The position numbers and the translations under genes were made by a program. A stretch of DNA of 41,171 bases, from positions 1 through 41,171 of the IMG/VR virus record IMGVR_UViG_2778261424_000010; one strand, given 5' to 3'. This document shows positions 2,396 through 15,295 of this stretch, in pieces. The stretch is from a virus (lineage: Duplodnaviria; Heunggongvirae; Uroviricota; Caudoviricetes). Numbering within the stretch: the first letter of the stretch is position 1; every line of letters begins with the position of its first letter. Under the pieces are notes generated by a model that had not been told where the DNA came from, ran no database searches, and worked only from the letters and a program-made list of their open reading frames with translations.

Positions 2396-3138
2396 TCAGC
2401 CTCCGTCTCTGCGACATTGACAGGTTCGGCGTTGTCGACAGCAAGACTCATGTCATACATGCGTCGTTTCTCAACTGCGCCGATCACCTGTTTCTCTTCG
2501 GCGCTCAGCGCCACCCAGAACTCCTGATACTTAACGGTTCCAAGGCGCGCGGCGGACTCACCTTTTGCGATCAGTTCCGGGCGGCGGCTATCTGATTCAT
2601 GGCCCGCATGAACCTCTGCCGTTGTTCCTTCAATTACTCGCTCTGCCTCGTCCTGGTCGAAGATGCCAGCGAAACCAAAGGCCAGACGCGCGCACTGGAT
2701 CAGCGTCTTGTGGCGAAGCATGCGGGTAGGGTGGGACTGCCATGGCTGAGTGTTGCGTTTGCACTCTCCCATGTACTCGGTGACGATGGTCGGGTGCTTA
2801 CGGTCTTTGCGGTAAATCTTGCAGGTACACGCGCCTTCCTCCTTGTCGTAAGAGAATTCCATGCCGTCAAACTGAGGATGTTCGTTGATAATGCGAGCCC
2901 ATCCATCAACGCCGACGACCGGGACAATCCCGCCTTTATCTGGAAAGGCATAAATCTCTTTGGTCCATGGGTTCAGGCCGTACTGGTTGGCGACGATTAG
3001 CAGGGCTGTAAATTGCTCGTCCGTGACGTTGCCACCTTTGAACGCTGTATTCTTCAGCGTATTCATCAGGTCTGTACCGGCATCCATGCCGAGGCGTGCG
3101 GCCAGTTTCCCGGCCATGGTGGAAAGTGCAGTACTCAT
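2392..3138 (-). CDS. bet: Bet (Red-beta) single-strand annealing protein
   Basis: From the ATG at 3138 the protein begins MSTALSTMAGKLAARLGMD...LLIVANQYGLNPWTKEIYAFPDKGGIVPVVGVDGWARIINE. This is near-colinear with lambda Bet as I remember it. The track's extra 5 codons start at a TTG. Confidence 0.9.
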   Translation of the reverse strand: MSTALSTMAGKLAARLGMDAGTDLMNTLKNTAFKGGNVTDEQFTALLIVANQYGLNPWTKEIYAFPDKGGIVPVVGVDGWARIINEHPQFDGMEFSYDKEEGACTCKIYRKDRKHPTIVTEYMGECKRNTQPWQSHPTRMLRHKTLIQCARLAFGFAGIFDQDEAERVIEGTTAEVHAGHESDSRRPELIAKGESAARLGTVKYQEFWVALSAEEKQVIGAVEKRRMYDMSLAVDNAEPVNVAETEAE

Positions 3139-3156
3139 TGTTAAATCCCTCAAAAA

Positions 3157-3441
3157 TTAAAACGGGCAGCCGGTACGGTGTTCCCAGTCGTATTCCGCCT
3201 GGGCGTAAGCAACTACCGAAATGAAATCGTTGTAGGCCTCGCCAGCTTTATCGCTGCGAAGCCCTTCGTATGGGCTGGAGTCTATCGGGATCGTGAAGTG
3301 GAAGAGGCCGGACGGCTCTTTAGGCATCATGTCGATGATTTTCTGCGCCCGGTCGTCGATCCACTTCTCTTTCTCGTCGGTGATCTGCTGCTCAGCCCAG
3401 CGCCGATCTTCGATGCGGTCGTAAGTGAGGTATGCGTTCAT
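3157..3441 (-). CDS. Gam-like protein (possible RecBCD inhibitor), divergent C-terminus
   Basis: 94 aa in the lambda gam position, immediately upstream of bet. The N-terminus MNAYLTYDRIEDRRWAEQQ resembles lambda GamS [21 protein letters not shown]. The rest is not recognisably similar. The SD GAGG lies 6 nt upstream. Confidence 0.45.
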   Translation of the reverse strand: MNAYLTYDRIEDRRWAEQQITDEKEKWIDDRAQKIIDMMPKEPSGLFHFTIPIDSSPYEGLRSDKAGEAYNDFISVVAYAQAEYDWEHRTGCPF

Positions 3442-3448
3442 GGTTGCC

Positions 3449-4420
3449 TCAGTAATGAATTTTCGCGCAGGGGATCAGGTCATCTTTCAGAGCGGTAAGC
3501 ACTTCGATAGCCTGCTCGCGGGTTAAGCTGGTTTGGCTGGTGAGCGCGTTAACGATGTTGGTGCCGACCGTCTTGCGGTGCTTAACGTCAGCTTCACGCT
3601 TTGCCTGCTCATCGGCGAGGCGCTTCTCTTCGGCCAGGCGGGCATCTTCGGCCTGTTTGGCCTTCAGGCGCTCGGCTTCAACCGCCGCGGCTTTTTCGCG
3701 TTCCGCCCTGGCTTCCGCTTCCTGCTTCTCGCGATCTGCACGCTGTTCCGCTTCGACGCGCTGGCGCTCCGCCAGTTCAGCGCGGGCTTTCTCTTCGGCT
3801 TCACGGCGCGCTGCGGCTTCAATCTCCGCTTTGTGCTTCGCTTCGGCATCGCGGCGGGCTTGTTCTGCCGCTTCCTGTTTCAGCCGCTCATCACGTTCAC
3901 GCTGAGCCTGTTCCGCCAGACGGCGCTGCTCTTCGCGGTCACGGTCAAAATCCTTGTTCATCAGTAGAGCCATTTCGTGGTCCGCTTCGAACTTGGCAGC
4001 CAGCTCCTGATCGAACCTGATGTTCATCTCCAGCGCTTCGGCGTGCATCGCGTTCATGGCTTCTTCAGCCTTAATGCGTTCCTGCTCGGCTTCCCATTCG
4101 GTGAGTGGGCGGCGGGTCGCATCGCGCAGCTCGTCGCAGGCATCAACGAATCGCTTAATTTCGGCCTCAGCCGGACGCACAGCCTCTTTCAGGCGCTTCA
4201 GGTACTCACGGCCCGGCTTTTCGATTGCCGTCTTGCTGCGGGACACCTGCGCTGCCAGAGAGGCAACACGGTCACGGCCTTTCTTCGTGGACAGGTCCGG
4301 CACTTCGTTTACAGCCTGGCGGATTTGCTCAAGGTACGCGTCAAGGCCGCCCGCTACGTAAAGCACTGGGGCCTGTTCCGGCTTGATTTCGATGACAGTT
4401 AAGTCCGTTACTTCGCTCAT
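3449..4420 (-). CDS. DUF1351-like phage protein with a long E/A/R/K-rich coiled-coil
   Basis: 323 aa with an AGGAG SD. The N-terminal third resembles DUF1351 proteins that accompany phage recombinases. Residues about 150-280 are almost pure E/A/R/K/Q repeats. Confidence 0.6.
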   Translation of the reverse strand: MSEVTDLTVIEIKPEQAPVLYVAGGLDAYLEQIRQAVNEVPDLSTKKGRDRVASLAAQVSRSKTAIEKPGREYLKRLKEAVRPAEAEIKRFVDACDELRDATRRPLTEWEAEQERIKAEEAMNAMHAEALEMNIRFDQELAAKFEADHEMALLMNKDFDRDREEQRRLAEQAQRERDERLKQEAAEQARRDAEAKHKAEIEAAARREAEEKARAELAERQRVEAEQRADREKQEAEARAEREKAAAVEAERLKAKQAEDARLAEEKRLADEQAKREADVKHRKTVGTNIVNALTSQTSLTREQAIEVLTALKDDLIPCAKIHY

Positions 4421-4490
4421 GGTTTCTCCTGAAATTTGGATGTGCAGATCCCGCCCGCGTAATGCCAGGCCGATCGGTTGAATAGGGTGG

Positions 4491-4688
4491 TTACTGCTGC
4501 GCGATGGATTTCGCCGGGAACTCGCCGTTGCGGATGATGCTTTCTACCGGCCAGCACTCAGCTGACACTTTCTGCTCTGTAGCTGCCAGGCTGCATTCCT
4601 GCTGGCTGTCGTAAACGCCGAGAATGACATCCTGATAATCACCGTTGGTCATTGCCACGGTCAGGACGAGTGCGAATAAAGTTTCCAT
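4491..4688 (-). CDS. Small hydrophobic-N-terminus protein (DUF1482-like)
   Basis: 65 aa from the internal ATG at 4688 (METLFALVLTVAMTNGDYQDV...). Its start shares one nucleotide with the stop of the upstream mini-gene. Confidence 0.5.
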   Translation of the reverse strand: METLFALVLTVAMTNGDYQDVILGVYDSQQECSLAATEQKVSAECWPVESIIRNGEFPAKSIAQQ

Positions 4689-4816: not shown

Positions 4817-4956
4817 GATTTCCTCTTGGCCTTATCGCGGCGAACGGAACGGTTAATACAAGACTTCAACGCATTTATTCAGTGTTTCAATGGGCGGTGG
4901 ATGGCCGCCGGTTGTCATAAATGGGCAGACTCGAAAATCTGCCTATGTATGGCCGA

Positions 4957-4978
4957 TAAAAAACCCGCCGGAGCGGGT
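4957..4978 (-). terminator. Rho-independent terminator directly after the 222-aa gene
   Basis: On the minus strand the hairpin ACCCGC-TCCG-GCGGGT (4978-4963) is followed by TTTTTTAT. It begins immediately after the TGA at 4978-4980. Confidence 0.7.
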
Positions 4979-5646
4979 CATTCATTCTTTGGTATGCCGC
5001 AAAGGGCGTTTAGCGTTTCAACGGGAATGGCAAGTGCGGTGCTGGTCGCTTCACGGCGTTCCACCTCAGGCAAATATGGCACTGCCTCAGGCCACATCTC
5101 AGCCAGTTTTTTAACAGTTGAGACTTTGGTTAGAGCACCTTTAACCTGCAATTGGAAGGCATCAACTTCATCGTAAAGAACGTTGATGGTTACCGTCGAT
5201 TCAGTGAGTCGGTCGTGTAATTTTCCAACTTTCTTCAGCGTGCTGTAACTTTCAGGAACGAAACCCGAATCAATTACAGGCGCGAAGGAAGCTCCGAAGA
5301 ACAGGTCGCTTTCAAGATCGTGCTTACCAATATGTTTTCCACGGTGGCGATAGCGATGATCCAAACCGTTCCTGGCTAATTCGTGATACTCACCATTAAT
5401 AATGACCTTTAAAATTGCAGTTTTAGCGCCGACCTTCATCTTGATGAAGGAGTTATCTTTGAAATCTTCCCGAGCCTTAGTTATTTGCTCATCGCTAGTG
5501 TTTTCCTGCTTGAGCAATGCCTGTCGAATTTCTTCAACAATTTTCGCCCTCTCATTAACCGCAGCTTTCGCTTTCTCAAACAATGGGGATGCGAGAAGCA
5601 GGTTATGGCATAGCTGATTTTTAATTTCGTTGTTAAGACGAATCAT
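4978..5646 (-). CDS. Orphan 222-aa protein, first cistron of the PL operon; function unknown
   Basis: Clean ORF with SD AGAGGG upstream of the ATG at 5646. GC content is lower than in the neighbours. Helical N-terminal third, mixed remainder, no TM segment. I cannot assign a family from sequence alone. Confidence 0.8.
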   Translation of the reverse strand: MIRLNNEIKNQLCHNLLLASPLFEKAKAAVNERAKIVEEIRQALLKQENTSDEQITKAREDFKDNSFIKMKVGAKTAILKVIINGEYHELARNGLDHRYRHRGKHIGKHDLESDLFFGASFAPVIDSGFVPESYSTLKKVGKLHDRLTESTVTINVLYDEVDAFQLQVKGALTKVSTVKKLAEMWPEAVPYLPEVERREATSTALAIPVETLNALCGIPKNE

Positions 5647-5692
5647 TGACTTACCCTCTGTCGTTACCCGCTGATGCGGGAGAAATGCTTTG

Positions 5693-5762
5693 TGGTGGAG
5701 TGCTACGGATTCGAACCGAAGTTTTCATGGGTGATCAGTCCATGCAGGCCCAGCCACACCCC
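5693..5762 (-). ncRNA. tRNA-like element (degenerate cloverleaf with encoded CCA) inside the PL leader
   Basis: Minus strand: GGGGUGU GGCUGGGCCUG CAUGG ACUGAUCAC CCAUG AAAAC UUCGG UUCGAAU CCGUA GCACUCC A CCA. It has a 7-bp acceptor stem (two G-U pairs) and a 5-bp anticodon-like stem with a 9-nt loop. The variable region is 5 nt. The T-arm has the canonical UUCGAAU loop and one U-U mismatch. The D-arm is reduced to an 11-nt stretch. Confidence 0.45.
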
Positions 5763-5917
5763 ATTACAAAACATTCCAGTTACGCACCATTGCCGCTCTC
5801 CCTGAGCCCGCCGGGCGTCCGACGCATGGTTTACTGTCGCGCCGTTCGACTGACCGAATCTCCACTTCGCCGCTGGCTAACTTCGCTCAGCTGTCGATGT
5901 TTCGTTTCGATGGGGTA

Positions 5918-5946
5918 AATTTAGCGTGATGCTAAATTATGCGCAA
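5918..5946 (-). promoter_or_regulatory. Candidate PL promoter
   Basis: Minus strand: TTGCGC (5946-5941), a 17-nt spacer, then TAAATT (5923-5918). Operator copies overlap it. It faces the leader and the 222-aa gene. Confidence 0.45.
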
Positions 5947-5994
5947 TAGCAAAATGCTAAATTGTTGAATGGTTTTATTTAGCGTATTGATTAA
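5920..5994. promoter_or_regulatory. OL operator cluster (three 17-bp sites)
   Basis: TTTAGCGTGATGCTAAA (5920-5936, perfect arms), AATAGCAAAATGCTAAA (5945-5961) and TTTAGCGTATTGATTAA (5978-5994). The same TTTAGC-N5-GCTAAA motif occurs at OR. Confidence 0.7.
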
Positions 5995-6033
5995 TAAGCG
6001 ATTAAAAATTTACAGCGAAGGAATTCGGGACGT

Positions 6034-6058
6034 AAAAAAGCCCGCGCGATGGCGGGCT
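6034..6058 (-). terminator. Rho-independent terminator downstream of cI
   Basis: On the minus strand the hairpin AGCCCGC-CATCGC-GCGGGCT is followed by TTTTTT. It lies 20 nt after the cI stop. Confidence 0.75.
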
Positions 6059-6077
6059 TGAGGGGTTTTGCGTGAGG

Positions 6078-6755
6078 TTATGGGATGTTTAGTATTTTGG
6101 CATCAACCACAACGCCGATGATTTTGCAGTTTCCATTAATTTCTAGCATTGGATATGCGGGGTTAAGGGGCTTTAGGAAGCGTCTGCCGGCATCGATTAC
6201 AAGCTTCTTAAAGGTCGCTTCGTTATCGCCTTCTAGCTTCGCGACAACCAGCTTTCCGTTGCGCGGCTCGACTTCAGGATCAACAAGTATCGCTGCTCCC
6301 TCGGGTATGCTCAGTCCAGCCGGGGAGGTCATAGAATCCCCTTTAACGTCCAGCCAGAATGAATCTTCTGAGCAGTCAACAGTCGTGTCATACCAGCGAT
6401 CTATCGCTCTTCGGTGATAAGGTTCTACAGCTTCCATCCATTGCCCCGCGCTTACCCAGCTGATTACAGGATAACTTCCTTTTGTCTCGTTCAGTCCTCG
6501 AAATGCAACGTTCGAAGGTTCTTCACTGGCGTGTAAAACATCCATCCAGCCAAAAGGCAGATCAAGCGCAGTTTCAATTTTGCGAGCCATCTTATCGCCG
6601 ATATTGCGATGAGGGTTTGGTCCCAGTAGCTGGCTAAGCGCAGCCGGACTTGTCTCGATGAGCTCGGCAAACTGCGCTTTGGTCATTCCAGACTCGTGCT
6701 GACGCTTCTCGTACAGCGCTTCCAGGTTGGCTTTTCTGATTTCTTTATTTTCCAT
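6078..6755 (-). CDS. cI: cI-type prophage repressor (HTH plus S24/LexA-like autopeptidase)
   Basis: 225 aa from the ATG at 6755. The C-terminal half is colinear with lambda cI. It has the candidate Ala-Gly cleavage site in VSAGQW, the Ser nucleophile in KGDSM, and the Lys in ATFKKL. Confidence 0.9.
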   Translation of the reverse strand: MENKEIRKANLEALYEKRQHESGMTKAQFAELIETSPAALSQLLGPNPHRNIGDKMARKIETALDLPFGWMDVLHASEEPSNVAFRGLNETKGSYPVISWVSAGQWMEAVEPYHRRAIDRWYDTTVDCSEDSFWLDVKGDSMTSPAGLSIPEGAAILVDPEVEPRNGKLVVAKLEGDNEATFKKLVIDAGRRFLKPLNPAYPMLEINGNCKIIGVVVDAKILNIP

Positions 6756-6773
6756 ACCTGCATTGTTACTGCT

Positions 6774-6839
6774 TTTAGCAAAATGATAAATGTGCAAATT
6801 GCTAAATGATGCTTGCGTAGTATTTAGCATAACGCTAAA
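6774..6839. promoter_or_regulatory. OR operator cluster
   Basis: TTTAGCAAAATGATAAA (6774-6790), a weaker ATGTGCAAATTGCTAAA (6790-6806) and TTTAGCATAACGCTAAA (6823-6839), all between divergent cI and cro. Confidence 0.7.
6799..6826 (+). promoter_or_regulatory. Candidate PR promoter
   Basis: TTGCTA (6799-6804), a 16-nt spacer, then TATTTA (6821-6826). The -10 hexamer overlaps the operator at 6823-6839. The cro SD GGAGA lies 7 nt before the ATG. Confidence 0.55.
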
Positions 6840-6871
6840 CTCCAAATCAAACGACTCACCCGGAGACACCA

Positions 6872-7105
6872 ATGAGCACTGAACTACACCGCTGGCGCAA
6901 GGCCGCCACTACCGACGAATGGGCGCAGCTCGCAAAGTTGGCTAACACGACGCCAGGTTACCTGGACCAGATCGCCTACGGAAATCGCCGGGCATCTCCA
7001 GAAATGGCATCTGCTATCGAGAAAGGCACGAAGAATTTTCACCGCCAGGCTCCGGTCCTAAAAGAAAGCCTGGTATTCGCATCGCCGCGTGATACTGCGG
7101 CCTAA
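6872..7105 (+). CDS. cro: Cro/YdaS-type small HTH regulator
   Basis: 77 aa, divergent from cI across the operator cluster. The HTH-like segment is WAQLAKLANTTPGYLDQIAYG. Confidence 0.75.
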   Translation: MSTELHRWRKAATTDEWAQLAKLANTTPGYLDQIAYGNRRASPEMASAIEKGTKNFHRQAPVLKESLVFASPRDTAA

Positions 7106-7122
7106 CCACGAAAGGGAAAGCA

Positions 7123-7665
7123 ATGCATTCACTTGCGTATCAACACAATACCGGAATACACCCGGGAGCGATGATAAACCGCGCTCAACCTAAGGCGGCG
7201 CCAGACCACGAAAAGATCCGCGATGCGGTCCGGGCATGGTCTTCGGCGCTGGACAATCAGGACGTCGTTTCGGCACTGATCATCAACGAATACCGGGAGC
7301 AGGGCGGTACCGCCATCAGCTTCCCGGAAGACATCAGCCGGGCGCGCCAGAAGCTGTTTCGCTTCCTCGATAACCGTTTCGACTCTGAGCAGTACCGCGA
7401 GAACGTGCGCCAGCTGACACCCGCAATCATGGCGGTCCTGCCGGTTGAGTATCGCACTCGCCTGATCGGTGCCGATTGCAAAATGTCTCGCCTGGCTGAG
7501 GCCGAGAAAGAACTCGCAGAGGCTAAACAGGCAGTGCTGCTGGACGCTCCAGAGCATCAGAAGCTGAAAGAGGTAAGCGAGGGTATAGCGTCGCTGTTCC
7601 GCCTCATGCCTGAGCAGGTAGGGCCGCTGATGACGATGGTTACGTCGATGCTGGGGGCTATGTGA
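7123..7665 (+). CDS. ydaT: YdaT-family protein in the cII position
   Basis: 180 aa. The segment EYREQGG...QLTPAIMAVLPVEYRTRL parallels Rac YdaT (EEYLRQGG...LIPAILAILPRELRHRL) as I remember it. It is the second gene of the PR operon. Confidence 0.65.
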   Translation: MHSLAYQHNTGIHPGAMINRAQPKAAPDHEKIRDAVRAWSSALDNQDVVSALIINEYREQGGTAISFPEDISRARQKLFRFLDNRFDSEQYRENVRQLTPAIMAVLPVEYRTRLIGADCKMSRLAEAEKELAEAKQAVLLDAPEHQKLKEVSEGIASLFRLMPEQVGPLMTMVTSMLGAM

Positions 7666-10557: not shown

Positions 10558-10802
10558 GCGAATGGAGTGATTATCGCTGGATGGTTAGGACCATGGCGAA
10601 GGATAACGGTGTAACGCTCATCAGCATCGCCAAGCACTGCGGCGTATCGAACAGGAAACTTAATCAGATTCTCCAAGCGGGGCCATCCAAAGAACAGGAA
10701 GAACTCATAGCCGAAGCTCTGGGCTGCGCAGGGTGTGACCTTGCGGAAATCCACAGGCAAATGGGCGAGTTATCAGACAAGTACGGGAGGGCAGGGGTAT
10801 GA
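10554..10802 (+). CDS. Hypothetical small HTH-like protein
   Basis: 82 aa from ATG 10554 (ATGA coupling). An 18-bp direct repeat flanks it exactly. Confidence 0.5.
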   Translation: MSEWSDYRWMVRTMAKDNGVTLISIAKHCGVSNRKLNQILQAGPSKEQEELIAEALGCAGCDLAEIHRQMGELSDKYGRAGV

Positions 10803-11095
10803 AAATTTACATCGCAGGACCAATGACAGGTTACGAAAATTACAACCGTCCGATGTTTAACGCAGTAGCACAGCAGATGTTATCAGGTGGTCATGTGGCA
10901 TTAAATCCGGCCACGCTCCCGGATGGTTTATCTCAGCGTGAGTATATGGACATCTGCCTGGCGATGCTTCGCTGCGCCGACGCCATTCACATGCTGCATG
11001 GGTGGCAAGAGTCGGAAGGTGCCGTCGCTGAGCATGCCATGGCTAAAAAGCTGGGAATTAAAATTTCTTACCAATTTGAAGGAGCTGCCGCATGA
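10799..11095 (+). CDS. DUF4406-like protein (nucleoside 2-deoxyribosyltransferase-like fold)
   Basis: 98 aa. MKIYIAGPMTG...N...F matches the DUF4406 N-terminal signature as I remember it. Confidence 0.6.
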   Translation: MKIYIAGPMTGYENYNRPMFNAVAQQMLSGGHVALNPATLPDGLSQREYMDICLAMLRCADAIHMLHGWQESEGAVAEHAMAKKLGIKISYQFEGAAA

Positions 11096-14379: not shown

Positions 14380-14516
14380 CATTTGAATCCTGTTTTTCCG
14401 ATCACCTCCGCGTTCGCTGGCAGCGGCTTCGCTTATACCACTTTCCCGGCTCTGTGCTAACGGACTACCGGATACTGAAGAATTACGTGAAAACTTATGC
14501 TGGAGAAGCGCTATGA
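14376..14516 (+). CDS. ylcG: YlcG-like small protein (not in the ORF track)
   Basis: 46 aa: [46 protein letters not shown]. It has ATGA coupling to both rusA and Q, the same position as ylcG in DLP12. Confidence 0.45.
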
Positions 14517-15295
14517 ACCTTGAAAACACAGTGAAATACCACTTCGCTAAATCCACACTGATTAGCGATTCTCCGCGCGCTACCGCCTCCGATTCACTGA
14601 CCGGTACCGACATAATGGCTGCCATGGGCATGACGCAGGAACGCGCCGCAATGGGTTACAGCGCCTTCCTCGGCAAGATGGGCATAAGCAATAACGACCG
14701 GGATCGGGCGATCGGTCTGCTGGCTGAGTACGCGATGACAAAATGCGACAAGGTTGCCGCACTGCGTAAGCTCGGTGCCGCGGTTAAACCTCAGGTGATG
14801 CACCAGTTGGCCACCTTCGCTTTTGAGGACTATTCCCGCAGCGCTGCCAGCGTGAAGCAGTGCGATTGTTGTGACGGTCAGGGCTTCATTGAGGCTGACG
14901 TGTTTACCAATAAATTCCGTAAGCCAGAAGGGAGAATGACCGTGTCCGGGATGGTGAAGGTCAAAGAATCCATCAAAGTGCTATGCAAAAAGTGTAATGG
15001 CTCTGGTGTGGTTAGTGCTTCTTGCAGTGATTGCCATGGGCGCGGCAAGGCAGTGAACCAGGCTCTTACTGAGAAACAGGGCGTTCCTGTTCTGGCTGAC
15101 TGTAAGCGCTGCGGAGGGCGTGGGTATGAACGACTTCCGTCGACTGAAGCCTATGCTGCTGTATGCCAGATTACTGACGCCATTAGCCTGGACACCTGGA
15201 AAAAGTCTGTTAAGCCATTCTACGACCTGCTGATCACGAAATTTGATATCGAAGAGTCCTGGGCCGAAAAACAGCTTAAGCAGATAACGCGGTAA
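14513..15295 (+). CDS. Q: Late antiterminator Q (phage-82/DLP12 QuuD family) with four CxxCxGxG zinc-finger motifs
   Basis: 260 aa. The N-terminus [33 protein letters not shown] and the C-terminus TWKKSVKPFYDLL parallel QuuD. The central motifs are CDCCDGQG, CKKCNGSG, CSDCHGRG and CKRCGGRG. Confidence 0.85.
   Translation: MNLENTVKYHFAKSTLISDSPRATASDSLTGTDIMAAMGMTQERAAMGYSAFLGKMGISNNDRDRAIGLLAEYAMTKCDKVAALRKLGAAVKPQVMHQLATFAFEDYSRSAASVKQCDCCDGQGFIEADVFTNKFRKPEGRMTVSGMVKVKESIKVLCKKCNGSGVVSASCSDCHGRGKAVNQALTEKQGVPVLADCKRCGGRGYERLPSTEAYAAVCQITDAISLDTWKKSVKPFYDLLITKFDIEESWAEKQLKQITR

What the first reader, a model, noticed from the sequence alone, without database searches (positions are those of the whole stretch)
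4957..5646. Orphan 222-aa gene is the first PL cistron and is closed off by its own strong terminator
In the position where lambdoid phages carry N, ral, sieB or rex, this phage has one 222-aa ORF that I cannot place in any family. The long structured leader precedes it. A textbook terminator follows, with the hairpin abutting the stop codon and then T6. It is therefore the only protein made from PL without antitermination, that is, in the first minute of infection or from leaky PL in a lysogen. That expression logic fits an anti-defence or superinfection-exclusion factor better than a housekeeping phage gene. Its GC content is lower than that of the recombination genes downstream.
Basis: partly seen in the sequence, partly recalled or inferred. 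Interest (0 to 1): 0.6.

Follow-up and report, generated by a model that had tools for sequence, protein, structure and literature searches.

The report
Nmad5 gene in the put/nun slot

Summary
The physical features are real. There is a 222-aa ORF (4978-5646, minus strand), first after PL. A strong hairpin-T6 terminator overlaps its stop codon. A 265-nt leader precedes it, and its GC is lower than that of the downstream genes.

1. The ORF is not an orphan. It is a full-length Nmad5 protein (Pfam PF18757, E=1e-30; phrog_1965).
2. The leader carries an HK022-type putL antiterminator RNA (100 bits with a covariance model; strong covariation). The critical residues listed in the cryo-EM paper are conserved. 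There is no N gene. PL transcripts should therefore be antiterminated in cis, and the terminator should not isolate the gene.

The hotspot idea is right. The ORF sits in the slot that holds nun in HK022. Among 113 put-bearing loci I found 93 cargo architectures and about 125 cargo families. Nmad5 was present in 3.

Function is unsolved. The family has no invariant catalytic residue and no fold match. Elsewhere it usually sits in or at the head of replication/recombination modules. In Dhillonvirus, a missense change at the Lys equivalent to K180 escapes Tmn defence.

Most likely it is a dispensable, non-enzymatic early accessory protein. It is a new member of known kinds and of modest interest.

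The parts
4978..5646 (-). Nmad5-family gene, 222 aa, first cistron of the PL operon. It is cargo of the put-to-terminator ('nun') slot.
   Evidence: ORF. Pfam PF18757 E=9.8e-31, full length. phrog_1965 E=2.7e-49. NCBI names near-identical proteins 'Nmad5 family putative nucleotide modification protein'. GC 44.8%.
4956..4979 (-). Intrinsic terminator (GACCCGC-UCCG-GCGGGUU plus U run) overlapping the TGA stop. It is the conserved downstream boundary of the cargo slot.
   Evidence: It is 100% identical to HK639, where terminators are annotated. The same terminator, with at most 2 mismatches, occurs in 48 of 113 put loci, 324-1848 nt after put. HK022 has a similar hairpin after nun.
5647..5692 (-). 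Conserved proximal 5'UTR block with a small hairpin (CCCGC-AUCA-GCGGG, 5680-5667) and the RBS GAGGG (5658-5654). It is the upstream boundary shared by many different cargo genes.
   Evidence: It is present in 54 of 113 put loci. The same block precedes HK639_44, KO-TP1 gp28, CobraSix gp50 and a phi80 gene.
5693..5762 (-). tRNA-like block in the leader: a 7-bp acceptor stem, a canonical T arm GGTTCGAATCC, an ACCA end and a truncated D arm. Its significance is unknown.
   Evidence: ARAGORN. No Rfam hit. The fold is no better than shuffles. It is rare: 1 of 5426 E. coli genomes and 4 of 113 put loci.
5780..5852 (-). putL-type antiterminator RNA (HK022 family), two stem-loops.
   Evidence: 84% identity over 61 nt to HK022 putL. 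It overlaps the 'putL-like antiterminator RNA' annotated in HK639. Covariance model score 100.5 bits. Covariation: 8 pairs with changes on both sides, 93.9% of cells paired, 0 of 500 shuffles as high.
5918..5946 (-). Putative PL promoter TTGCGC-17 nt-TAAATT; transcription start near 5911.
   Evidence: Read from the sequence. The -10 ends at the position that aligns with the end of HK639's annotated pL. The simple consensus scan did not call it.
5919..5995 (.). Three OL operator-like sites (ATTTAGC-N5-GCTAAAT). The site at 5919-5937 is a perfect match.
   Evidence: 9 matches in the window against 1.6 expected. The others cluster at 6773-6840 (OR).
6038..6059 (-). Intrinsic terminator after the repressor gene. 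It insulates PL and the leader from PRM transcripts.
   Evidence: 8-bp stem, 6 GC pairs, then T6.
6078..6872 (-). CI-like repressor (HTH + S24 peptidase). The true start is probably downstream of the longest-ORF start.
   Evidence: Pfam Peptidase_S24 2.3e-29 and HTH_3. OR-like operators lie inside the longest ORF.

Best explanation
The window is a lambdoid prophage of the HK022/HK639 type.

Expression. Leftward early transcription starts at PL (about 5911). It crosses a putL antiterminator RNA (5852-5780) that binds the transcribing RNA polymerase in cis and makes it terminator-resistant. It then enters a cassette slot bounded by a conserved 5'UTR block and a conserved intrinsic terminator. 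In HK022 this slot holds nun. Here it holds a 222-aa Nmad5-family gene of lower GC, acquired by cassette exchange. Because put lies upstream, the gene is made together with the downstream genes (DUF1482 protein, a 323-aa protein, Gam-like, RecT, exonuclease) as soon as PL is derepressed. It is not made alone. The terminator mainly stops polymerases that are not put-modified. It should be silent in the lysogen.

What is shown and what is inferred. Shown: family membership, the put RNA, the slot and its variability. Inferred: read-through at this particular terminator.

Function (inferred, low confidence). Nmad5 is a non-catalytic, dispensable early protein. It probably acts by binding a partner in DNA replication/recombination or host takeover, through its conserved C-terminal T-V-x-K-L...W-P-E...L-N-x-x-x-G-x-P module. 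It probably does not modify nucleotides itself.
For: Family:
- Pfam Nmad5, full length; phrog_1965.
- 131 representative clusters at 50% identity, nearly all single-domain proteins of about 200 aa.

put RNA:
-. As a control, the model also found HK022 putR, which was not in its training set.
- By my numbering from the alignment, the residues PMC9378689 reports as critical or important (A8, A9, U21, C25, U28, U32, G35, G43, A64, U68) are all conserved (paper read).
- No ORF of 40 aa or more, and so no N gene, lies between the repressor and the ORF.

Slot and variability:
-.
- HK022 nun lies between putL and a similar terminator.

No lysogenic expression:
- Terminator after the repressor gene, and no promoter-like site in the leader.
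- A distant homologue could not be cloned because of apparent toxicity (PMC11846954).

Non-catalytic:
- Only W185, P186 and N213 are invariant across 40 diverse members. No invariant acidic, His or Cys residue.
- No fold match to any enzyme.

Link to replication/recombination:
- A 31%-identical member is again the first PL gene before GamL-RecT-YqaJ.
- An 81%-identical member lies in an N-type PL operon before Kil, Erf and SSB.
- The largest distant cluster lies in the order DUF2800 nuclease, Enc34 SSB, Nmad5, PolA.
- In Guernseyvirinae it heads the exonuclease / SSB / DNA polymerase operon.

Dispensable:
- Present in 3 of 113 put loci.
- A Dhillonvirus nmad5 deletion phage was viable enough to be spot-tested.
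Against: - Read-through of this terminator was not measured.
- King et al. 2011, the paper on HK639 putL, could not be read here. For HK639 I rely on the GenBank annotation and on my memory of that paper.
- The same Nmad5 gene with the same PL occurs in E. coli YPE10 behind a different, put-less leader. So put is not obligatory for this cassette.
- In Dhillonvirus the gene lies on the opposite strand inside the head-gene cluster. That does not fit a replication/recombination role.
- In M6-like phages it heads a thymidine hypermodification cassette (PMC9476957).
- The AF2 model is only moderate (pLDDT 73).
- No binding partner has been identified.
- Hotspot location and low GC fit an anti-defence cargo equally well.
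Confidence: 0.55

Rival explanations
1. Anti-defence factor. Nmad5 is made early to neutralise a host immune system, and it is exchanged in the slot as part of the arms race.
For: - Hypervariable slot: 125 cargo families, 88 of them seen once.
- Low GC.
- Earliest position in the operon.
- In Dhillonvirus, a K-to-E change at the conserved Lys (SM_A8 K216, which aligns with window K180) lets the phage escape Tmn, while deleting the gene does not. The authors suggest a gain of function (PMC11846954).
- The slot holds the exclusion gene nun in HK022.
Against: - No anti-defence activity has been shown for any wild-type Nmad5.
- In many distant phages the gene holds a fixed position in replication modules rather than a variable island.
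- The Tmn data equally fit Nmad5 being sensed by the defence, not inhibiting it.
- No library of anti-defence proteins was available for comparison. PADLOC, which holds defence proteins, gave nothing.
Confidence: 0.25
2. Nucleotide or DNA-modification accessory, as the family name implies. It would target or assist enzymes that modify phage DNA bases.
For: - The Pfam and NCBI names.
- In M6-like phages it is the first gene of the thymidine hypermodification cassette (PMC9476957).
- A nucleotide kinase and a Mom-like gene lie near homologues in Guernseyvirinae.
- Methyltransferase genes lie downstream in L144 and L145.
Against: - I scanned 39 other ORFs of the window against Pfam: the PL operon, the immunity region, the replication and nin regions, and the lysis/terminase start. 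None was a methyltransferase, aGPT-Pplase, kinase, DpdA or glycosyltransferase. The only nucleotide-related hit is a DUF4406 protein at 10799-11092, in another operon.
- No invariant catalytic residue.
- Hypermodification cassettes sit next to the DNA polymerase gene, so the association may simply reflect the replication module.
Confidence: 0.1
3. Lysogen-expressed superinfection exclusion factor, like Nun. It would be made from the prophage and insulated from kil and the recombination genes by its own terminator.
For: - It occupies the same slot as nun, with the same kind of terminator behind it.
- A terminator after the gene would make sense for a gene with its own promoter downstream of put.
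Against: - No promoter-like site lies between put and the ATG on either strand.
- PL carries three operators.
- A strong terminator follows the repressor gene.
- No sequence similarity to Nun: they fall in separate families in all-against-all BLASTP.
- A homologue is toxic when cloned.
Confidence: 0.07

Closest known systems
Nmad5 family (Pfam PF18757, 'nucleotide modification associated domain 5'; phrog_1965), e.g. Dhillonvirus SM_S22 / SM_A8 Nmad5
   Same: Full-length match to the family profile. 24-26% identity over the whole length to the Dhillonvirus proteins. Same conserved T-x-x-K-L..WPE and C-terminal LNxxxGxP motifs. The Lys changed in Tmn-escape mutants is conserved as K180.
   Different: Here it is a solo gene in the first slot of a lambdoid PL operon with no modification genes nearby. 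In Dhillonvirus it lies on the opposite strand among head genes. In M6-like phages it lies in a hypermodification cassette. No member has a known biochemical function.
HK022 PL - putL - nun - terminator arrangement
   Same: The same order: repressor, OL/PL, put RNA, one cargo slot, an ACCCGC..GCGGGT-type terminator, then the early-left genes. The put RNA is homologous (84% identity, 100 vs 99 bits).
   Different: The cargo is Nmad5, not Nun, and the two show no similarity. put lies about 60 nt downstream of the start rather than at it. A terminator separates the repressor gene from PL here; none is evident in the HK022 stretch I read. No putR was found anywhere in the window.
Phage HK639 early-left region (NC_016158: pL, putL-like RNA, HK639_45, HK639_44, two terminators)
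   Same: The leader is 93-97% identical in blocks, including the 5' part of put, the tRNA-like block and the proximal UTR. The terminator region is 100% identical.
   Different: HK639 carries two other cargo genes: a 115-aa ECs_2282-type protein inserted after put, and a 149-aa protein in the Nmad5 position. Stem II of put differs by compensatory changes. The immunity region differs.
Lambda N/nutL system and the early-left accessory genes (ral, sieB, rex)
   Same: Same map position, and the same general idea of accessory genes near PL. An 81%-identical Nmad5 does occur in an N-type lambdoid downstream of an N_peptide gene.
   Different: This window has no N gene at PL.

Membership tests
Nmad5 (PF18757) | Profile match above the curated gathering score over the whole domain | tested here: met
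   107.9 bits against a cut-off of 27, E=9.8e-31; residues 2-219 match profile positions 1-206 of 206. phrog_1965 E=2.7e-49.
Nmad5 (PF18757) | Family signature motifs: T-V-x-K-L-x-x-x-W-P-E and the C-terminal L-N-x-x-x-G-x-P | tested here: met
   T177, K180, L181, W185, P186, E187, L212, N213, G217 and P219 are present. W185, P186 and N213 are invariant across 40 diverse members.
Nmad5 (PF18757) | Genomic association with nucleotide or DNA-modification genes (the basis of the family name) | tested here: not met
   None among the 39 other window ORFs scanned against Pfam. This is a contextual feature, not a requirement of the Pfam model.
HK022-type put antiterminator RNA | Sequence and structure homology to putL, with two stem-loops supported by covariation | tested here: met
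   84% identity over 61 nt to HK022 putL. Covariance model: 100.5 bits, E=2.5e-19. 8 of 17 pairs show changes on both sides; covariation score 0.344 against 0.101 in shuffles (0 of 500 as high) and at most 0.082 with partners slid.
HK022-type put antiterminator RNA | Conservation of residues shown by mutagenesis and cryo-EM to matter (A9-G35 pair, U28 in the -10-like AACCAU, A64, G43, U68) | tested here: met
   All are identical in the window when numbered from the alignment to HK022 putL. The residue list comes from PMC9378689. The numbering transfer is my own.
HK022-type put antiterminator RNA | Location downstream of an early promoter and upstream of terminators, with no phage antitermination protein | tested here: met
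   put lies about 60 nt after the predicted PL start and 134 nt before the ORF. A terminator lies at 4956-4979. No N-like ORF is present.
HK022-type put antiterminator RNA | Promotes terminator read-through that depends on the beta' zinc-binding domain of RNA polymerase | not testable with these tools
   This needs reporter fusions in wild-type and rpoC mutant hosts.
Lambda N / nut antitermination | An N gene as first PL cistron | tested here: not met
   No minus-strand ORF of 40 aa or more lies between the repressor gene and the Nmad5 ORF. For contrast, relative L143 has a PF25694 N_peptide gene there.
Nun (HK022 exclusion protein) | Sequence similarity to Nun | tested here: not met
   Nun-like proteins (F13, 7 loci) and Nmad5 (F37) form separate families in all-against-all BLASTP at E=1e-5.
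Known anti-phage defence proteins (PADLOC-DB) | Match to any model | tested here: not met
   0 families at E up to 1.
Known anti-defence proteins | Homology to a characterised inhibitor of a defence system | not testable with these tools
   No anti-defence library was available. The PDB profile search gave only noise: the best hit had E=0.27, and AcrIF23 appeared at E=0.94.
Intrinsic terminator | GC-rich hairpin followed directly by a U tract | tested here: met
   7-bp stem with 5 GC pairs, 4-nt loop, T6. MFE -16.1 kcal/mol, z = -2.5.

The most novel reading that the evidence does not exclude
Nmad5 is a small non-enzymatic hub protein of early phage DNA metabolism that host immunity watches. 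Its conserved Lys-WPE surface (K180 here) would be what Tmn-type defences sense, or what the phage uses to block a host nuclease or defence. Put-type lambdoids would then swap it in and out of the nun slot as counter-defence cargo. This would give the first function for a family now labelled 'nucleotide modification associated' by neighbourhood alone.
Probability: 0.25. Interest if true: 0.6.

Novelty: new member of a known kind. Interest (0 to 1): 0.3.

Why it matters
For this locus, the result corrects the expression logic. In put-type lambdoids nothing in the PL operon is 'pre-antitermination', so position before a terminator is not evidence of a special early or lysogenic role.

More broadly, two things may be useful.

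1. The interval from put to the first terminator is a sharply bounded exchange site with conserved junctions. It carries more than a hundred mostly unknown gene families, including nun. That makes it a convenient place to mine phage accessory genes.

2. Nmad5 is widespread and uncharacterised, and its name probably misleads. The family lacks catalytic signatures, tracks replication/recombination modules, and carries the residue whose mutation defeats Tmn defence. This E. coli prophage copy is a tractable member for finding its partner.

Tried and rejected
- Rfam, whole window at gathering thresholds and leader at E up to 10: nothing meaningful. put RNAs did not match any Rfam family.
- Whole-leader folding: not better than shuffles.
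- tRNA reading of the ARAGORN hit: rejected as a real tRNA gene. The D arm is truncated, there is no Rfam tRNA hit, and the energy is not better than shuffles.
- PDB sequence-profile search: noise only. PADLOC: nothing.
- King et al. 2011 (HK639 put) could not be opened by DOI or PMC id.
- The search for related loci with the 40-sequence alignment failed for lack of a conserved stretch. A closer alignment worked.
- The put-less alternative leader of YPE10 / KO-TP1 / phi80: no Rfam hit, folding z = -1.1, no put by covariance model. It remains unexplained.
- dN/dS of the ORF: only 16 codons differ from L028 (10 synonymous, 6 non-synonymous). This is too few for a firm statement.
- DefensePredictor paper (PMC13092281): it mentions an 'NMAD' domain in defence units but does not say which Nmad family. 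I did not use it as evidence.

Full report
OBSERVATION

The ORF is real. It spans 4978..5646 on the minus strand, starts with ATG, and encodes 222 aa. A GAGGG Shine-Dalgarno sequence lies 7 nt upstream. The N-terminus coincides with position 1 of the family profile.

A CI-like repressor gene (HTH + S24 peptidase) lies upstream on the same strand at 6078-6872, followed by a strong terminator at 6059-6038. Next come three operator-like sites ATTTAGC-N5-GCTAAAT at 5919-5995, with three more at 6773-6840. The window has 9 matches against 1.6 expected. A TTGCGC-17-TAAATT promoter has its -10 ending at 5918. By alignment this is the position where the HK639 record ends its annotated pL.

No minus-strand ORF of 40 aa or more lies between the repressor and the 222-aa ORF, so it is the first PL cistron.

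The terminator is as described. It has a 7-bp stem (5 GC pairs) and a 4-nt loop, the stem begins inside the TGA stop, and a T6 run follows. MFE is -16.1 kcal/mol, z = -2.5.

GC is 44.8% (GC3 45%), against 54.5-59.9% (GC3 63-73%) for the five downstream PL genes.

THE GENE IS NOT AN ORPHAN

Pfam gives Nmad5 (PF18757) at E=9.8e-31: 107.9 bits against a cut-off of 27, over residues 2-219. PHROGs gives phrog_1965, of unknown function, at E=2.7e-49. RefSeq annotates near-identical E. coli proteins as 'Nmad5 family putative nucleotide modification protein'.

An exhaustive HMMER search of 1.84 billion representative proteins finds 131 clusters at E up to 1e-3. Nearly all are single-domain proteins of about 200 aa. 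tblastn finds relatives in 177 phage records, mostly Dhillonvirus.

Across 40 diverse members only W185, P186 and N213 are invariant. G85, G94, T177, L181, P193, L212, G217 and P219 are nearly so. No invariant acidic, His or Cys residue suggests catalysis.

THE LEADER CONTAINS A put ANTITERMINATOR RNA

The nearest phage records are HK639, CobraSix and KO-TP1. HK639 annotates a 'putL-like antiterminator RNA' and two terminators in the corresponding places. Window 5789-5919 aligns with the 5' part of that RNA and its upstream leader at 93%. Window 4893-4978 aligns with the terminator region at 100%.

Directly, window 5848-5788 is 84% identical over 61 nt to the sequence just downstream of HK022 PL, which is putL and lies upstream of nun.

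The exact core pattern AAACCATGCGTCGG-N6-GGCGGG-N-TCAGG found 9 loci among one-genome-per-species contigs and at least 120 IMG/VR contigs. That gave 135 instances and 71 sequence variants.

On 23 distinct variants, 8 of 17 proposed pairs show changes on both sides and 93.9% of cells are paired. The covariation score is 0.344, against 0.101 in shuffles (0 of 500 as high) and at most 0.082 when partners are slid.

A covariance model built from these scores the window element (5852-5780) at 100.5 bits. HK022 putL scores 99 and HK639 scores 94. The model also finds HK022 putR (38 bits), which was not in the training set. It finds no second put in the window.

Numbering from the HK022 alignment, all residues that the cryo-EM and mutagenesis paper reports as critical or important are identical in the window. 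These are A8, A9, U21, C25, U28 in the -10-like AACCAU, U32, G35, G43, A64 and U68. The differences are compensatory or fall at U20, the position where that paper found all its inert mutations (PMC9378689; numbering is mine).

That paper states that put RNAs act without any phage protein. They suppress intrinsic and rho-dependent terminators, and they stay with the elongation complex for at least 10 kb.

I therefore infer that polymerases leaving PL are already modified when they reach the ORF and its terminator. The ORF would then be co-expressed with the downstream DUF1482, 323-aa, Gam-like, RecT and YqaJ-exonuclease genes.

Read-through at this terminator was not measured here, and I could not read King et al. 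2011.

As a whole the leader is not unusually structured (z = -1.05).

THE LOCUS IS A CASSETTE HOTSPOT: THE nun SLOT

In HK022, nun lies between putL and a hairpin ACCCGCTCAGGCGGGTTT. This is the counterpart of the window's ACCCGCTCCGGCGGGTTTTTT.

The same flanks hold different genes in different relatives:
- HK639: HK639_45 and HK639_44.
- CobraSix: a 212-aa protein.
- KO-TP1: a 65-aa protein.
- E. coli EM18-18-42: TerB + DUF3927.
- E. coli GN04979: a BRO-N protein.
- phi80 (in NEB 5-alpha): a 98-aa protein.

The flanks occur in 127 of 5426 complete E. coli genomes. Only 8 hold most of the query including the gene.

In 113 put-bearing loci with at least 1.5 kb downstream, I grouped sense-strand ORFs by all-against-all BLASTP. 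I defined a recurrent 'backbone' heuristically (small proteins, kil, DUF1482, GamL, the 323-aa protein). Between put and that backbone there are 93 different cargo architectures and 125 cargo families, 88 of them seen once. Nmad5 occurs in 3.

Recurrent cargo includes HNH_3+AP2 proteins, ECs_2282-type proteins, a 149-aa protein of the HK639_44 type that looks membrane-associated from its sequence, DUF551, Nun, TerB and DUF2528.

A conserved 5'UTR block (hairpin CCCGC-AUCA-GCGGG plus GAGGG) precedes the cargo in 54 of 113 loci. The conserved terminator follows in 48 of 113, 324-1848 nt after put.

The Nmad5 cassette itself is 97-100% identical in loci with different immunity regions and different mid-leaders.

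WHAT Nmad5 MIGHT DO

No biochemical function is known. I found four kinds of context.

1. Lambdoid early-left operons.
   - An 81%-identical copy lies downstream of an N_peptide gene and upstream of Kil, Erf and SSB.
   - A 31%-identical member is again the first gene after the repressor, ahead of GamL-RecT-YqaJ.
2. Replication modules. The order is DUF2800 PD-(D/E)XK nuclease, Enc34-type SSB, Nmad5, family-A DNA polymerase. This includes the largest distant cluster sampled in IMG/VR.
3. Guernseyvirinae. It lies at the head of the exonuclease / SSB / polymerase operon.
4. Exceptions.
   - In Dhillonvirus it lies on the opposite strand among head genes.
   - In M6-like phages it is the first gene of the thymidine hypermodification cassette upstream of the polymerase (PMC9476957).

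This window has no recognisable DNA-modification enzyme among the 39 other ORFs I scanned against Pfam.

The one experimental thread is PMC11846954. Tmn-escape mutants of two Dhillonviruses carry K216E or K296E in Nmad5. Reverting the change restores sensitivity. Deleting the gene does not give escape. The gene could not be cloned because of apparent toxicity. SM_A8 K216 aligns with window K180 in the T-V-K-K-L..WPE motif, the most conserved part of the family.

I therefore favour a dispensable, non-catalytic early protein that binds a partner in DNA replication/recombination or host takeover. A dedicated anti-defence role is the main rival. A modification accessory or a Nun-like lysogenic exclusion factor is less likely. 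Against the last:
- No promoter-like site lies between put and the ATG.
- PL carries operators.
- The repressor gene has its own terminator.
- The protein is unrelated to Nun.

VERDICT

The physical observation is confirmed. 'Orphan' is wrong. The expression logic is undermined by put. The hotspot idea is confirmed. The anti-defence idea remains open.

This is a new member of known kinds: the Nmad5 family, and the HK022/HK639 put-nun architecture. Interest is modest.

Noticed in passing
window 5693-5762 (-): There is a tRNA-like block inside the PL leader. It has a 7-bp acceptor stem, a canonical T arm (GGTTCGAATCC), a discriminator plus CCA, and a truncated D arm. ARAGORN calls it tRNA-Ile(GAT). 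Rfam does not match it, and its fold is no better than shuffles. It is shared with HK639 but rare: 1 of 5426 E. coli genomes and 4 of 113 put loci. It could be a relic of a tRNA or att site, or an RNase P processing site between put and the message.
   Followed up: partly
L005 (E. coli YPE10) 6843-7165, L002 (KO-TP1) 4330-4678, L008 (phi80 in NEB 5-alpha) about 2966-3287: Relatives with the same first ~50 nt of leader as the window (YPE10 also has the same PL and the same Nmad5 gene) lack put. In its place they carry a different insert of about 320 nt. It begins with a terminator-like hairpin and U run (GGCGGACAGCAAGTCGCC-TGCTTTTT). The put covariance model does not match it, Rfam does not match it, and its folding z is -1.1. 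How these phages get past their PL terminators is unexplained.
   Followed up: partly
L013-L141 (put-bearing loci), the region 0-2.5 kb downstream of put: The interval from put to the first terminator is a sharply bounded hypervariable slot. There are 93 cargo architectures and about 125 protein families in 113 loci. Most have no Pfam domain. Nun is only one of them (7 loci).
   Followed up: yes
window 5667-5680 and 4963-4978 (-): The hairpin in the conserved 5'UTR block (CCCGC-AUCA-GCGGGU) and the terminator hairpin (CCCGC-UCCG-GCGGGU) share the same stem sequence as direct repeats flanking the cargo gene. These might be the exchange points for cassettes. This is speculative.
   Followed up: no
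window, whole (41 kb): With filters off, the put covariance model detects HK022 putR but finds no putR-like element in this window. A lambda-Q-type antiterminator gene is present at 14513-15292. How the PR operon passes terminators before Q is open.
   Followed up: partly
window 6755-6872: The longest repressor ORF (TTG start at 6872) contains the three OR-like operators (6773-6840). The real start is probably a downstream Met (around 6755, MENKEIRK...), although relatives are annotated with a 250-aa product.
   Followed up: no
window 3449-4420 (-): This is a 323-aa protein rich in Glu, Ala and Arg, probably coiled-coil, with no Pfam match. It recurs as a backbone gene of PL operons in 24 put loci and in several Nmad5-bearing lambdoids.
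   Followed up: no
window 10799-11092 (+): A DUF4406 protein lies in the nin region (E=3e-34). From memory, not tested here, this family belongs to the nucleoside 2-deoxyribosyltransferase-like superfamily. It is the only nucleotide-related gene I found, and it is not linked to the Nmad5 gene.
   Followed up: no
L143 4409-4657: An 81%-identical Nmad5 gene sits in an N-type lambdoid, downstream of a PF25694 N_peptide gene. The cassette therefore moves between put-type and N-type phages.
   Followed up: partly
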